Shown here: positions 296-6,107 of the stretch, one piece after another
Numbering within the stretch: the stretch's first letter is position 1
Layout of the letters: each line of letters begins with the position of its first letter
Assembly (NCBI RefSeq): GCF_032062105.1
Contig: NW_026932547.1
Span: 434,001 to 498,000 of the forward strand
Length of the DNA stretch: 64,000 nucleotides
Source: Saccostrea cucullata
Lineage: Eukaryota
Direction: 5' to 3'
Translations under genes and position numbers: made by a program
The notes under the pieces: generated by a model
Seen by the model: only the letters and a program-made list of their open reading frames with translations
Database searches by the model: none
Told to the model about the DNA's origin: nothing

Positions 296-418
296 ATTTA
301 GAGAACTCGACAGGTTCTGTACCGTAGATACAAATTTGGGGGTGGAGACTCGTGCAACCGCACTCGTCTCACCCCCAAATTTGTATCTACGATACAGAAC
401 CCGTCTCGTTCTCTAAAT
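296..418. repeat. Fold-back palindrome H1, probable terminus of a non-autonomous DNA element
   Basis: ATTTAGAGAAC...CGTAGATACAAATTTGGGGGTG...CACCCCCAAATTTGTATCTACG...GTTCTCTAAAT; arms ~60 bp with CTCG/CTCG mismatches at 306/405 and 349/363. Confidence 0.85.
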
Positions 419-1212
419 AATACTTATGAATGTTTCGCAAATAAGTCTTGGTACCTTTTAGATGTTTTATCCATAGAACAAAGATGAATCTTTTTTACAT
501 GAATGTAATATATGTCAGTCAAGTAGATTCTATTAATATTTCAGAAACCAATAGTACACCGACAAAGGACAATTGTCATGCAAATATCTACAGTTTGAAA
601 GGTATCTATGAGGGGCTAAAAATACTCTTTTAAAGAGAATGCGTAGATTATTGATGAAAGTAGGAATAAAAAACCAATTTTACATGTATACTTTAACAAA
701 CTTGATTGTTTTTATTTTATTCATTTAATTCTATTGGTTCGTTTTTTAACTAACCTGATCCAAAGGCACAAAAGTGAGCTTTCTGATCACAACTCGTCCG
801 TTGTAGTCATTTTTATATAAACTTATCACATTTTCATCTTCTTCTCAAGAACAACTGATCCAATTTCAACCAAACCCGCAATTAAGTATCCTTGGTTGAA
901 GGGCCATGCCCTCTTTTAAGGGGTGATAGCTATGAATGTATGGTTTCTTTTAAAAATCATCTCAAGATCCACTGGGTCAGGATTGATGAAACTTGTGGAA
1001 TTATCCTCAAGTAGTGCAGAATCAGGTTTGATCAAATCATGACCCCCGGAATAGAAATATATAGGAAAAATCTTAAATCAAAAACCGTGAAGTAATTATT
1101 AGTAAAAATTATATAGAAGCATCTGCAGGTGGTGTAGATTCTAGTTTGTAAAAAACGCCCCCCGGCGATAGGGTGGGTTCACAATTGATGATCAAGGGTA
1201 TACTTACATGTA

Positions 1213-1214
<2 letters not shown>

Positions 1215-1292
<78 letters not shown>
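1215..1292. repeat. (AT)n microsatellite
   Basis: ~39 perfect AT units. Confidence 0.99.
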
Positions 1293-1297
<5 letters not shown>

Positions 1298-1302
1298 CAT
1301 AT

Positions 1303-2402
1303 TAGGGATGGCAATTCTTAACCGGTTAATCGATTAATCGGTCGGAACGATGCTAATCGGTTAGAAAATCCGTAATCGGTTAGTCGGAAAAAATAAAAAT
1401 ATATGTAAATTTGGACACGTCTTCTTAAAATTCACTTTTAGGAAAGGAAACCTCTGCTAAGCGTTCATTTAACGTTTTTACATATCTTGTAATTAAATAA
1501 TTTGGAGGTATTTATAACTCTCCTGATTGGGGTCACGGGGTAATTGGCCAGTTTGTGGTGTTAATTGCTGTTTTTAAAACATCATAATGTTAACCCGACT
1601 GCCCTGCATATGATTTTTAAATGATTAGTAAAAACAACACCATGTAGCACTTGAAATTAGTATTTCTATATTTTGCCGTTATCTTTTAAGTTATGTCATA
1701 TTAGATTTTTTTTAAAAAGTGTAAATAAAGTGCATTGGCGTCGGAATTGGCGTCGGAAGCAAATTTAAAGTGGGATGTAAAGAAAAAATTGGACCTTCAA
1801 AACACCCTGACAAGGAAAAATAAAAAAAAAACGAAAAGGACGAAAAAATATCCTATTCCGTGGTGGTGGTGGTGGTGGGGGGGGGTTCTGAACTTCAGTA
1901 CCAAATTTTTTTTCCAAACACCACCACTTTTCCCATTTTAACCTACATTAAGTATACTAAAACATGTCTTTGGAAAGTGGGGGGGAGCTATTAACCTACG
2001 TTTCTGTGTTCACTAATATACTAATATATATTAAGTATATATTTGAGAAAAAAAGGGCTGGGGCTAAGCCAACCCCCCCCCCCCGGTTCCGACACCTATG
2101 AAGTGAGAGGTGACAATGCAGAATAAACTTCTTTTACATCTGCATTGGACAATTATCTGTGTCTGATTCTCAGGCAAGTCTTAAGATTCATGGTTTTCTT
2201 CATATTTTCTTGTATATTGGAATTATTAAAAATAAAAATTATATCCTTATGCACAAAAATATCCCGTTCAAGGTAATTAACAGAATAGAACTTCTAACAT
2301 CATTTTTAGCCTTGTGATTATGAAGAAATGTCAAAATGAACATTTTGATACGACTAACCGGTTAATCGGTCGGAACGTCTTCCGGTTAACCGATTAGCAA
2401 TT
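1303..2402. mobile_element. hAT-like non-autonomous element; right TIR runs into the gap
   Basis: Left end TAGGGATGGCAATTCTTAACCGGTTAATCG; right end CCGGTTAACCGATTAGCAATT is the inverted match; subterminal AACCGGTTAATCGG repeats at both ends. Confidence 0.7.
1733..2100. mobile_element. Nested MITE with 14-bp TIRs and 5-bp TSD
   Basis: CATTGGCGTCGGAA ... TTCCGACACCTATG, flanked by AAGTG at 1728-1732 and 2101-2105. Confidence 0.75.
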
Positions 2403-2549
2403 NNNNNNNNNNNNNNNNNNNNNNNNNNNNNNNNNNNNNNNNNNNNNNNNNNNNNNNNNNNNNNNNNNNNNNNNNNNNNNNNNNNNNNNNNNNNNNNNNN
2501 NNNNNNNNNNNNNNNNNNNNNNNNNNNNNNNNNNNNNNNNNNNNNNNNN
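2403..2549. other. Assembly gap (147 N)
   Basis: Run of N. Confidence 1.
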
Positions 2550-3477
2550 CAGATTCAAGTTTATTCAAATCATAACCCCTAGGGTAAGGACGGGGCCGCA
2601 AAGTTTACATAGGATTATATTGGAAAAATCTATAAAAACCTTTTTTCAAGAATAACAAAGCCAAAATTTGTTATATTTATATGGAAGCATTCTCAGATGG
2701 TGTAGATTCAAGTTTGTTCAAAACATGACCCCCGGGGAAAGGGCGGGACCACAACAGATTATCAAATTTTCACAAGGAATATATAGGAAAAATCCTAAAT
2801 AAGAAACAGAAAAAAAATCTATTTTTACTTTTTTAAATAGTAGAGAATAACAAGAGGCCAAGAGGATATATTGCTCTACCAAGAACTATGGCAAGAAAAA
2901 AAAGCAAAAATCAGTTTAGTATAAAAAAAAAGCTTAAATGCATGAGTTGTCCAGATTTACCCCTTAAAGGCAGAACGGGTAAGGGGGAGGGGTTAAATTT
3001 GAACAAAGGTGAATCTATACTTAATTAATAAGGGTGCTTCCAAATAAAATGACAAACAATGGTTTTGCATCTCTTGAGAAGAAAATTATTCCTCTATACA
3101 AATTGCACTAGTAACCCACTAAGTGAAACACGAACAAACTAGATGCCGAAATCAAAATTTTCAATAGGACGATGCTTCTTAAACTTAACAATATCGCTAA
3201 ACAAAACATATAACTTCACATTTCGTTAAAATGCAAAGCAAAATGTCAAAAGACACCAAAAGAAAAAAAATATCCACAGTCTGATTAAATGTTTTTATCA
3301 GATTGTATATTTTATGAATAGACCATTAAAAATATTGGTAAGTACTAAGAGTGTTTTACGCTTGATAACTTGAGAGTTTGATATTCAATTTGATTTGCAA
3401 GTACTAGTATCTAAAATCAACCAGAGAATGCCGCCTCTAGTTGCAAGAAGCGAAATCCCCGTTTTTGTAATGGCATT

Positions 3478-3725
3478 AGTGACAAGGAAAACCGGGCAGG
3501 TGTGACCTTAAGGCAGGGGATGCTCACTCATCCATGGCACCTGATCCCACTTCTGATGTTTCGGGAGTCTATGTTTGCTCTGCTCTTATTTTGTATTGTT
3601 TGTTGGACTTTTGATCTTTTTATTATTTCATATTTAGATATTTTACTTGAAAAGGACGCCAATGGTTATCTAACAACCAAGCTCTATGATAAACGTGATA
3701 ATTTCCCTTGCTTATGCAGCAATAC
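3478..3725 (+). mobile_element. Penelope-like retroelement fragment (3' UTR motif followed by RT C-terminal piece)
   Basis: GGCAGGGGATGCTCACTC..ATGGCACCTGATCCCAC matches the reverse complement of 21400-21490; SYLDILLEKDANGYLTTKLYDKRD matches ORF 21557-21916. Confidence 0.85.
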
Positions 3726-4067: not shown

Positions 4068-4275
4068 GAAACGTTCTACTTTCCTACCTTAACGGTGTAC
4101 GAACGCTGAATGAACACAGATCGAACGGTGAGTTAACGATGTGCGAACACTGAACGCAGCTTGATCAACGATGTGTGAATGGTCAGTGAACGCGAACAGA
4201 GCACGAACGCGAGCGCAAAGTGAACGATGAACGAACGGTGAACGCAAAAAAAAACGATTTATTCGGAATGCCTCT
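4068..4275. repeat. Degenerate (T)GAACG repeat cluster, probably the subterminal region of a hAT-like MITE
   Basis: About ten GAACG/AACG motifs ending in GGAATGCCTCTG (reverse complement CAGAGGCATTCC, hAT-like terminus); partner TIR not found. Confidence 0.5.
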
Positions 4276-4353
4276 GATCTTTTCCTGACATTGAAATTAC
4301 TTTATTATTCTATAATTCTAATTTTTAGTGATAAAATATAAATACACAATAGA

Positions 4354-4409
<56 letters not shown>

Positions 4410-4412
4410 AAA
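4354..4412. repeat. (TAAA)n microsatellite
   Basis: ~13 tandem TAAA units. Confidence 0.95.
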
Positions 4413-4908
4413 ACATTTTTTCTGCACATAAGCATGTCCTAAATCGATATTTTAATAACATGAATTTAATTGCCCTGAAACATGTGTATTTGTTACTGAA
4501 TGCGTGAAGTATTAATATAAAAAAAAATTAATTTACTTATATATATATAGCAAAATGCTTATTCTTTTAACTAATTAAATAATGTGGACTTAAGAAGATA
4601 AAACTGCTACTTATAAAACGAATTAATTACATTGAACTCGGTTGAAACAATTATACATGTATTTCCGCGAAGAAGCGATTCTGAGTTTCACAAAAACGGA
4701 TTTTTTAAATTTACAATTGTCTATTGGCGTATTGCAGAAATTTAAAATTCTAATGCAAAGTTTATGTTTCATTTACAATAATTTATTATCTGTTATGATA
4801 ATACTCGGACAAGTCGATTGAAAGAGGCAATCAAATAATTTGTAATAGATCAAATTTTCAATACTAAATAAGTCATGTGATGTCCTAGTTTTTATTGAAC
4901 AGAGATAT

Positions 4909-4912
<4 letters not shown>

Positions 4913-4939
<27 letters not shown>
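4913..4939. repeat. (GA)n microsatellite
   Basis: ~13 GA units. Confidence 0.95.
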
Positions 4940-5942
4940 TTAGTTAATCCCCTCCATTCTTAGATATTTTTTGTATCATTTAAAATGTTTTATTATCTTT
5001 CCTAAATATTCCAAGCAGTAAAAGTTATCATCTTTTTAAGATTAACAAATCTATATGACAGTAATCATCAGCTTTTATTTTCCATCGACAAGTGACTGTT
5101 CACACGGTTCACAGGAAGCCAAGTCCACGTGCTTGTCCTGTCAATCAAAATCATTCGACACAGTAGAGGTGTGGAAATCAGTTTACCGAACATGTCGAAG
5201 GCAAAGTTTCCAAAAAGTTTTTTTTCTATCATTCCTAGATCTGATTTAAGAATTTCTTCAGAAAAAAAATAAATAATGGGAATATATACTTAAGGATTAA
5301 AGTTGAAATTTAATTGAAACATATTCCACGCCAATTTAAAATACTACTGTCGGCATATGTATACTTTGAAATACTATTGTTTAATATTATTCTAAACATA
5401 TATTCCAAGCCCTCTGATTGGCTTAAACATGGTCACATGATTAAGTATATAACAGCATATAGATTTGAGTTACTATTTATAGAATCTGAAATGCATATCG
5501 ACTTGATGTTTCTTAAAATGGAGGTAATTTATTGTAAAACAAAAAAATAATAGTATTGATTTCATAATTATAGCTACTACAGTTTATGACTTGATGTTTC
5601 TGAAAAAAATATATACTTCAACGTGTATTCAAATTGTATTGTTCTGTAACTGATAAGACGTAACAATGGTCTGAATTAGGATCTACTTAATATCAGAACA
5701 TATTGAAAAGCTTTGTCAAAATTGATACAAAACATAATCAAAAAGATGTACATTTGTAGTATTTTCAATGAGTAAATCATCTAAATTACTCAAGAAATGT
5801 AAAGGAAACACATTTATATCAAACAGCTAAAATTTTGATTTCTAGTCTCTAAGTGTTTTTGAAAGAAAACTTGTGGCTAAAGTTCCCATTTTTTGAAATT
5901 GTTTTTTATCAACTTCTGTAAAAAATAATATTACAAATGTAA

Positions 5943-6107
5943 CCCTTTGATGAGGTCAATCCATAGATATATCGACTTCACAGAAAAGCATATTGACCTC
6001 GCACTTCGTGCTCGGTCAATATGCTTTTCTGTGAAGTCGCACTTCGTGCTCGGTCAATATGCTTTTCTGTGAAGTCGATATATCTATGGATCGACCTCAT
6101 CAAAGGG
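5943..6107. repeat. Fold-back palindrome H3 with an internal 38-bp tandem duplication
   Basis: CCCTTTGATGAGGTC...GACCTCGCACTTCGTGCTCGGTC...GACCTCATCAAAGGG; 6001-6038 repeated exactly at 6039-6076. Confidence 0.9.

What the first reader, a model, noticed from the sequence alone, without database searches (positions are those of the whole stretch)
296..6107. Dissimilar palindromic elements share a strand-specific ssDNA hairpin code (tandem G.A pairs, mini-loops)
Seen: three hairpins with unrelated arm sequences (296-418, 3910-4044, 5943-6107) break symmetry in the same way. CTCG faces CTCG five times (306/405, 349/363, 3949/4002, 3970/3980, 5998/6011) where a true palindrome needs CGAG. On the minus strand this is 5'-CGAG-3'/5'-CGAG-3'. 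Known: Py-GA-Pu tandem sheared G.A pairs are stable in DNA, and C-GAA-G (H3) and C-TT-G (H2) are very stable mini-loops. Inference: only one strand folds well, so the elements are selected to act as single-stranded or extruded hairpins, as in IS200/IS605, REP, parvoviral termini or integron attC sites. I recall similar terminal palindromes in Crypton-type tyrosine-recombinase elements of aquatic invertebrates (unverified). An attC-like ssDNA substrate for a eukaryotic tyrosine recombinase would be notable.
Basis: partly seen in the sequence, partly recalled or inferred. Interest (0 to 1): 0.75.

Follow-up and report, generated by a model that had tools for sequence, protein, structure and literature searches.

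The report
Oyster Crypton ends: strand-coded DNA hairpins
At least two of these three palindromes are the ends of small repeated elements in an oyster-like genome, likely passengers of Crypton recombinase transposons, and their families keep the same built-in mismatches, which likely lets one DNA strand fold into the shape that the recombinase would recognise.

Summary
Observation confirmed: CTCG faces CTCG at all five stated places. It is a family trait, not decay. In 8 aligned H2 copies, 63 of 67 facing consensus columns pair, and the 4 that do not are exactly the two TC/TC tandems. H3 is a high-copy family in related genomes, whose contigs show a second TC/TC that the window copy lacks. An unselected fourth family (L129) has the same code. 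H2 and H3 are element ends without terminal inverted repeats or a duplicated target. H3 matches, feature by feature (by eye), oyster CgiSat40, labelled DNA/Crypton from Repbase. Best reading: non-autonomous Crypton-type elements whose folded GA strand is likely the recombinase substrate, as in integron attC. Against: no recombinase gene was found; both strands fold almost equally in the model; 3 of 10 H2 tips are flipped; H2 also shows Helitron2 features. Crypton transposition is experimentally undemonstrated (PMC13565253), so this makes an open question testable. The scan noted the same design before in a coral (e1-7769975).

The parts
296..418 (-). H1 hairpin: 11-bp outer stem, GA/GA, 40-41 bp stem, GA/GA, 4 bp, GGTT loop; two G.T wobbles on the same (minus) strand. 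Holds an 8-7-8 inverted site (299-321) whose 7-nt spacer begins with the outer mismatch
   Evidence: no family copies obtained
286..295 (-). Motif GATTTGTGAC right behind the H1 hairpin on the GA strand, like ACATTTGT behind H3 and H6, ACATTTG behind H4 and ACAGTTGT behind H5; suggests that the body of H1 lies to the left (inferred)
3733..4050 (-). Whole H2 element (about 318 bp); family present in 16 animal-like metagenome loci; T on both sides, no duplicated target seen
3729..3744 (.). Far end of H2, a 16/16 inverted copy of 3892-3907, which directly precedes the hairpin (asymmetric inverted repeat)
   Evidence: null 0.7% within 300 nt
3772..3794 (.). Single 8-7-8 inverted site TGTGATAT-N7-ATATCACA near the far end of H2
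3910..4044 (-). H2 terminal hairpin: outer stem of about 40 bp with GTTGGATA-N7-TATCCA(A/G)C in each arm, GA/GA, 19-20 bp, GA/GA, 3 bp, TT loop
5624..5939 (-). Body of the H3 element, repeated in relatives; left end not reached (contigs run over 5600); it may start near 5395 (inferred only)
5940..6112 (-). H3 terminal hairpin: outer stem of 11-12 bp, outer GA/GA in the family (paired in the window copy, 5952-5953), 45 nt, GA/GA, 4 bp, GAA loop; element end at about 6110-6119
5999..6077 (.). 38-bp tandem duplication of the tip and right arm, private to the window copy (slippage or assembly error)
11377..11552 (+). H6, decayed copy of a further hairpin family (with H4, H5): GAA-type loop and purine bulge, no GA/GA
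35049..35484 (-). H5 element (far end inferred from a 12/13 inverted match at 35049-35061, of marginal significance); shares the body motif ACGTCATAAAGGAT with H2-family locus L123
41024..41166 (-). H4 hairpin, same family core as H5/H6 with a different outer arm; C-GAA-G loop

Best explanation
H2 and H3, and likely H1, are terminal hairpins of small repeated elements, likely non-autonomous Cryptons, whose GA-bearing strand is predicted to fold when single-stranded and would then be the substrate of the tyrosine recombinase of an autonomous partner. Shown: H2 and H3 belong to repeat families, the hairpin lies within a few bases of one element end, there are no terminal inverted repeats, and the tandem mismatches are kept in the families. 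Inferred: the strand that reads hairpin-then-body folds during replication or cruciform extrusion; sheared GA/GA pairs, G.T wobbles and GNA or TT loops tell it from its complement, as extrahelical bases do in attC; the recombinase exchanges one strand, frees a single-stranded circle and inserts it into AT-rich double-stranded DNA without target duplication; replication resolves the junction. In H2 the two ends, if joined, would read CATGGGAGA-TCCTATA-TATCACATG, in register with the internal CATGGGAGA-TTCTTTT-TATCACATG, so the circle would fold into a dumbbell with a partly unpaired 7-nt spacer. Odds by step: family-level fold code 0.9; Crypton type 0.75; folded strand as recombinase substrate 0.45 overall.
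For: H2: 63 of 67 facing consensus columns pair, the other 4 are the two TC/TC tandems; 84.3% of 491 cells pair in the stems against 4 of 32 cells at those columns. H3: 466, 1125, 894 and 306 contigs laid in 4 of 4 runs; mixed loose ends at 6115-6123; a second TC at 5952-5953 in 13-64% of depth; 5994 T>C (74-95%) and 5949 G>A (17-61%) give G.T wobbles on the GA strand, with no row shown at the facing places. Unselected family L129:3331-3447 has CTCG/CTCG at the tip, a decayed second tandem and a C-TTC-G loop. CgiSat40 (673 bp, Repbase label DNA/Crypton) opens with a hairpin bearing GA/GA, GA/AA, GA/GA and C-GAA-G on one strand, an 11-nt outermost stem, 45 nt between outer and inner GA as in H3, and the words GA-GG(T/G)CAATAT and ACATTTGTTTT that the H3 family has (by eye). 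Animal Cryptons have no terminal repeats (PMC3212892). Crypton-A is among the top contributors of polymorphic insertions in an oyster. Inverted sites with a 7-nt spacer occur in H1 and H2, like the 6-8 bp spacer of tyrosine-recombinase sites.
Against: No tyrosine-recombinase or DUF3504 match among 150 window ORFs scanned; none evident by eye in the ORFs of the 16 loci (not scanned against Pfam). Both strands fold within 0.2-4.7 kcal/mol of each other. The tip is flipped in 3 of 10 H2 copies, and in L140 the outer tandem is perfectly paired; the window's H3 has lost its outer tandem. Covariation in H2 does not exceed shuffles (41 of 500 reach it). H3 and L129 have no inverted site at the threshold, and the null rate is 19%, 6.8% and 2.3% for 6, 7 and 8 matches. 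The Crypton label of CgiSat40 rests on a similarity that its authors call fragmentary. The same 17-nt tips occur in 28 and 51 stretches of viral contigs without long stems, so the tip alone is not specific to Cryptons. H2 fits several Helitron2 features.
Confidence: 0.45

Rival explanations
1. They are Crypton ends, but recombination is on double-stranded DNA as in the standing model; the hairpin is an accessory fold (cruciform, priming or replication signal for the circle), and the mismatches keep a long palindrome foldable yet less prone to deletion.
For: The standing model is a double-stranded circle (PMC13565253); Starships, also moved by a tyrosine recombinase, use a circular intermediate. 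Flipped tips persist in 3 of 10 copies. The same tips serve in phage non-coding arrays. Copies reduced to one site (L123, L134) show that the palindrome is deletion-prone.
Against: Does not explain why the outer tandem sits 11-12 bp from the hairpin base in H1, the H3 family and CgiSat40, whose sequences differ, nor why H2 rebuilds its own end junction internally.
Confidence: 0.25
2. They are rolling-circle (HUH) elements of the Helitron2/Helentron kind with an enlarged terminal hairpin; the single-strand code serves a RepHel protein.
For: H2 has an inverted repeat at one end whose partner lies just before the hairpin, a weak fold-back of that end, T before the element in 6 of 6 loci and T after it in all 9 independent family ends (8, plus the window), a head-to-tail dimer (L130) and repeated far ends (L129). 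These match Helitron2 as described in PMC3627910. The window holds Helitron-type arrays.
Against: The inner inverted repeat is about 145 bp from the end, not 20-30 bp. In H3 the matching repeat (5749-5763) is internal, since contigs cross it. The far-end fold-back is not better than shuffles in 2 of 2 family loci (z about -1.1). The look-alike CgiSat40 is labelled Crypton, in a table where many others are labelled Helitron.
Confidence: 0.2
3. The fold acts in RNA (a retro-type or transcript hairpin), or the mismatches are inherited without function.
For: Tandem GA pairs and G.U wobbles are also stable in RNA (own knowledge); H3 contigs occur in a run guessed to be RNA. Template switching could keep arms alike without selection; covariation is not above shuffles.
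Against: GAA triloops closed by C-G are a DNA motif (own knowledge; GNA hairpins in PMC11014236). No Rfam family reaches its gathering score (best 51.3 of 180 bits). The same tandem recurs in four dissimilar families plus CgiSat40, which neutral inheritance does not predict.
Confidence: 0.1

Closest known systems
CgiSat40 of Crassostrea gigas, Repbase label DNA/Crypton (PMC8268682, Table 1 and Data S1)
   Same: Hairpin at the start, tandem GA mismatches and GAA loop on one strand, 11-nt outer stem, 45-nt spacing, shared words and the ACATTTGT motif behind the hairpin; length 673 bp against about 680 inferred for H3 without its duplication.
   Different: Different arm sequence and a third (GA/AA) tandem; the passages seen treat it as a satellite and do not describe the hairpin; only the first 400 nt were visible; compared by eye.
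CryptonA and non-autonomous derivatives (Kojima & Jurka 2011, PMC3212892); Eulor5/6 (Kojima 2018, PMC5753468)
   Same: Short non-autonomous animal elements without terminal repeats, far outnumbering autonomous ones.
   Different: Neither main text has the words hairpin or palindrome; no recombinase ORF was linked here. That Eulor5/6 are hairpins with this code is recalled, not checked.
Integron attC / IntI (Bouvier 2009, PMC2727003)
   Same: Imperfect palindrome whose conserved asymmetries, not its sequence, tell the two folded strands apart; tyrosine recombinase proposed.
   Different: attC uses extrahelical bases and an unpaired central spacer; here tandem GA pairs and mini-loops; no cassette array, no attI, no enzyme test.
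Helitron2 / Helentron (Bao & Jurka 2013, PMC3627910)
   Same: H2: asymmetric inverted repeats, hairpin directly behind the inner repeat, T at both sides, no target duplication.
   Different: Hairpin about 135 nt, inner repeat about 145 bp from the end; H3 does not fit.
DIRS internal complementary region (named in PMC13465315; its templating role recalled)
   Same: In H2 both ends are inverted copies of the two halves of one internal site.
   Different: No inverted long terminal repeats, no reverse transcriptase, element only about 318 bp.

Membership tests
Crypton (CryptonA, non-autonomous) | Ends shared with an element encoding a tyrosine recombinase (DUF3504) | not testable with these tools
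   No genome held; no YR among 150 window ORFs; ORF remnants behind H4 and H6 gave no informative hit
Crypton (CryptonA, non-autonomous) | No terminal inverted repeats, no long direct repeats, no target duplication | tested here: met
   H2 ends in 6 and 9 loci; H3 right end; the left ends of H1 and H3 were not mapped
Crypton (CryptonA, non-autonomous) | Likeness to a repeat labelled Crypton | tested here: inconclusive
   H3 matches CgiSat40 in geometry and short words, by eye; the label is second-hand and fragmentary; H2 is linked only through the shared code and a body motif shared with H5
Crypton (fungal/oomycete type) | 4-6 bp terminal direct repeats | tested here: inconclusive
   Only T or TAT is shared by both H2 ends; animal Cryptons are reported without such repeats
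Tyrosine-recombinase core site | Two 11-13 bp inverted boxes around a 6-8 bp spacer | tested here: inconclusive
   8-10 bp boxes with 7-nt spacer in H1 and H2, 6-7 bp boxes in H4 and H5, none in H3 or L129; null 2-19%
Integron attC | Conserved asymmetries that distinguish the two folded strands | tested here: met
Integron attC | R/L boxes with extrahelical bases, cassette array and integron integrase | tested here: not met
   Tandem mismatches instead of extrahelical bases; no integrase or cassette ORFs
Integron attC | One folded strand is recombined | not testable with these tools
   needs the enzyme
Helitron2/Helentron | Inverted repeat 0-2 bp from one end, partner just upstream of the terminal hairpin | tested here: met
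   H2 16/16; H5 marginal; in H3 the repeat is internal
Helitron2/Helentron | Inner repeat 20-30 bp from the end | tested here: not met
   3907 to 4050, about 145 bp
Helitron2/Helentron | Hairpin at the first end that involves the repeat | tested here: inconclusive
   Folds in L124 and L140 with z about -1.1, not in the window's H2
Helitron2/Helentron | T at the end or insertion among T, no target duplication | tested here: met
MITE of a DDE transposon | Terminal inverted repeats at both element ends and a target duplication | tested here: not met
   The palindrome is one end of a longer element in H2 and H3
Known structured RNA (Rfam 15) | Score at the family's gathering threshold | tested here: not met
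   11 matches in 1-7000, all below gathering

The most novel reading that the evidence does not exclude
Animal Cryptons transpose through a folded single strand: a eukaryotic tyrosine recombinase reads a structure code (sheared GA/GA tandems at a fixed distance from the hairpin base, plus GNA loops) instead of a sequence, and each element carries an internal template of its own circle junction - a eukaryotic counterpart of integron attC recombination.
Probability: 0.4. Interest if true: 0.8.

Novelty: new variant of a known kind. Interest (0 to 1): 0.58.

Why it matters
A 2026 review states that Crypton transposition has not been demonstrated experimentally and that the model assumes a double-stranded circle (PMC13565253); the founding survey found no terminal repeats in animal Cryptons. 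If these hairpins are the cis-signals, they give defined substrates and single-change controls for the first assay, a structural signature for finding and classifying these elements, and possibly a structure-specific recombinase native to animal cells. The elements themselves are probably already in Repbase; the new part is the conserved fold code and what it implies.

Tried and rejected
No own genome, so no genome-wide count. Viral scans with H2, H3 and H4/H5 arm or core patterns gave 0, 0, 0 and 2 chance hits; the 14-mer H2 tip gave 120 loci, none extending more than 4 net pairs. Genome contigs gave 4 hits; 3 were read and are unrelated, and the fourth (L144) has the same range and contig length as L127; DUF3504 was absent from the one genome searched and from the controls. 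Of 20 metagenome hits, 4 (L127, L136, L137, L138) were dropped as unrelated; L128 was left out of the tallies as partial; L122=L125 and L126=L133 were counted once. The 24 sequencing runs listed share at most 0.10 of the words of a TRIM gene, so the laid runs are relatives, not this genome. Rejected: that the inverted repeat at 5749-5763 is the H3 end (contigs cross it); that a mismatch at the first spacer base is conserved (H2 consensus pairs there); that the open frames behind H4 and H6 are a recombinase (no hit; the two hits cover only residues 60-105, which look like another repeat); an empty site for H2 (only the left flank matches 21805-21923). Literature: nine searches listed no paper on hairpin or single-strand substrates of Cryptons; none of the 20 listed of 51 holds the word Crypton. 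Repbase and Dfam entries could not be searched and may describe the hairpins. The supplement of PMC11136912 could not be read and that of PMC13465315 was listed, not read.

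
Full report
Setting. The window is AT-rich animal DNA (GC 0.27-0.37) with a cluster of B-box/TRIM-type genes. Its 164-166 bp arrays closely resemble CgiSat01a/b of Crassostrea gigas (by eye), so the host is likely an oyster. No whole genome is held.

Observation. 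Within the three stated hairpins every 2x2 loop is C[TC]G/C[TC]G; treating them as independent gives about 1e-9, which overstates the case if the families are related. H3 has a 38-bp duplication of its tip that contigs of relatives skip. Nearest-neighbour folding favours the minus strand only slightly: -50.2/-54.9 (H1), -41.9/-43.5 (H2), tips 0.4-1.8 kcal/mol apart. The model may undervalue sheared pairs and GNA loops (own knowledge), but both strands can clearly form long stems. Three other long inverted repeats in the window lack the tandem. Two of them (H4, H5) and a decayed third copy (H6) form another family with a GAA-type loop of the same polarity.

H2 is one end of a family element. 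A 21-nt arm pattern that leaves out the mismatch found 20 metagenome loci; 16 are AT-rich and animal-like, 4 were dropped as unrelated. They define an element of about 318 bp in the window (3733-4050): far end, body, hairpin, end. I aligned the 7 copies that span both arms with the window copy. In the consensus 63 of 67 facing columns are complementary and the 4 others are the two TC/TC tandems. Cells pair at 84.3% (of 491) in the stems and at 4 of 32 in those columns. Covariation is not above shuffles (41 of 500). Read body-first, by eye and counting duplicate loci once: outer-left is TC in 6, TT in 1 and GA in 2 of 9; outer-right is TC in 5, other in 4 and GA in 0 of 9; the tip is forward in 7 and flipped in 3 of 10 (L129, L133, L140). 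So the mismatch is conserved, but its strand relative to the body is not absolute. Flips can come from template switching in the genome, from the element's own cycle or from assembly; L133 and L126 show the same flip in two assemblies. L123 and L134 have collapsed to one site, and L130 is a head-to-tail dimer.

H2 ends. The far end is a 16/16 inverted copy of the 16 bases before the hairpin (null 0.7% within 300 nt). The hairpin end reads GATCCTATA or a close variant and is followed by T in the 8 independent family ends (2 unrelated matches of the expression set aside) and in the window; the far end is preceded by T in 6 of 6 loci. There are no terminal inverted repeats and no duplicated target. 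Joined, the ends would stand in register with the internal junction of repeat and hairpin (9-7-9, three differences in the 7-nt spacer). That is an inference from sequence; the one real tandem junction (L130) has 6 extra bases.

H3 is a high-copy family. Contigs of 4 of 4 runs from two related organisms were laid on 5600-6300: 466, 1125, 894 and 306. Depth peaks on the hairpin, loose ends become mixed at 6115-6123 (agreement 0.41-0.52 in 8 of 9 such rows), and the body runs left to at least 5624. Positions 5952-5953 read TC instead of GA in 13-16% (X2), 47% (X14), 58% (X15) and 51-64% (X1) of depth. This makes a second tandem, T-GA-G facing C-GA-A on the minus strand, which the window copy lacks; part of the remainder may be right-arm contigs laid on the left arm. 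Changes at 5994 and 5949 make G.T wobbles on the same strand. No row is shown at 5999-6000 or 6012-6013, and run X1 has no C>A place at all, but 69 rows were not shown.

Independent cases. A hairpin search over the 16 loci (61,628 bases) found, besides H2 copies and three short or loose inverted repeats without the code, one further family at L129:3331-3447 with CTCG/CTCG at the tip, CTCA/CTTG further out and a C-TTC-G loop. CgiSat40 of C. gigas (673 bp, 402 copies, Repbase label DNA/Crypton) begins with a hairpin that has GA/GA, GA/AA, GA/GA and C-GAA-G on one strand. It shares with H3 the ATAT start, an 11-nt outermost stem of different sequence, 45 nt between outer and inner GA, the words around the inner tandem and ACATTTGT behind the hairpin. 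H1 has the same 11-bp outer stem and a similar motif. This comparison is by eye on the first 400 nt, and the authors call the non-Helitron similarities fragmentary. It is the only link to Crypton obtained here. H1 has no family data.

No enzyme. 150 window ORFs gave no recombinase family; open frames behind H4 and H6 gave nothing informative. Inverted sites with a 7-nt spacer occur in both arms of H1 and H2 and at the far end of H2, weaker ones in H4 and H5, none in H3 or L129; random 55-nt stretches hold such a site in 19%, 6.8% and 2.3% of cases at 6, 7 and 8 matches. In H1 the spacer starts with the outer tandem. This is suggestive only.

Mechanism. Features that exist only in a folded strand recur on the strand that reads hairpin-then-body in H2, H3, H4-H6 and CgiSat40. 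Two G.A pairs stack without disturbing B-DNA, and GNA triplets favour hairpins (PMC11014236). Since both strands fold, the marks are best read as recognition or strand-choice signals, as for attC, where an extrahelical base directs strand choice (PMC2727003). I therefore commit to a folded-strand substrate for a Crypton recombinase with one strand exchange and replicative resolution (0.45). Rivals: double-stranded Crypton recombination with an accessory hairpin (0.25); a Helitron2-like HUH element, which H2 fits in three features and fails in one (0.2); RNA-level or neutral (0.1). The 17-nt tips of L129 and H3 also occur in 28 and 51 stretches of viral contigs, without long stems, so the tip is a general single-strand motif and no family marker.

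What is known. PMC3212892 (passages and Additional file 1) reports no terminal repeats in animal Cryptons. PMC13565253 (passages) says that the mechanism is undemonstrated and assumes a double-stranded circle. Also seen as passages: PMC5753468, PMC13465315, 10.64898/2026.02.10.705023, PMC3627910, PMC2727003, PMC11014236, 10.64898/2026.09.21.753150, PMC10288648; PMC8268682 as passages and supplement parts 1-2; PMC11136912 as a listing only. Nine searches listed no paper on this hairpin code; Repbase and Dfam notes were out of reach and may hold it.

Verdict. A real, family-conserved structural code at the ends of small oyster transposons, probably Cryptons. New variant of a known kind; interest 0.58, because it turns an untested transposition model into a direct experiment, while the enzyme link remains indirect.

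Noticed in passing
L147-L223 (viral contigs), e.g. L159:251-435, L152:29-135: The 17-nt GA/GA + GAA tips of H3 and L129 occur in 51 and 28 stretches of viral contigs, often 2-3 within 200 bp in both orientations and without long stems; in L152 the array lies beside a transaldolase and a T7-type terminase gene, as at a cyanopodovirus genome end (label recalled). Another 17-mer gave 2 hits.
   Followed up: partly
L048, L077, L014, L001: The H2 tip 14-mer sits inside GC-rich intergenic palindromes that look like bacterial REP-type repeats (label recalled).
   Followed up: no
window 27808-56732: Cluster of B-box/coiled-coil (TRIM-like) genes on the minus strand, three with long intact frames (502-514 aa), several broken.
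   Followed up: no
window 20396-25167: Broken transposase-like frames (weak MULE match, E 8e-4, below cut-off) interrupted by frames at 21318-22894 that look like a Penelope-type retroelement (recalled, no Pfam hit); a related fragment lies at 3499-3724, just left of H2.
   Followed up: partly
window 14700-15628, 18696-19939, 49787-51393, 57397-58184: Tandem arrays of 147, 161, 164 and 166 bp; the 164-166 bp units resemble the Helitron-borne CgiSat01.
   Followed up: partly
window 40500-40990 (minus) and 11700-12240 (plus): Decayed coding-like sequence directly behind hairpins H4 and H6 on the GAA strand; no relatives found.
   Followed up: partly
L129:2397-2760 and 2962-3447: Three tandem copies of the far end of the H2-family element, and three hairpin families (H2 type, H4-H6 type, a new one) within 500 bp.
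   Followed up: partly
window 16814-17413 and 35742-36070: Long diverged inverted repeats with wide spacers, MITE-like; the second was checked and lacks the GA/GA code.
   Followed up: no
PMC8268682 Data S1, CgiSat18: Another C. gigas repeat begins with short GCGAAGC-type hairpins; its Repbase label was not seen.
   Followed up: no
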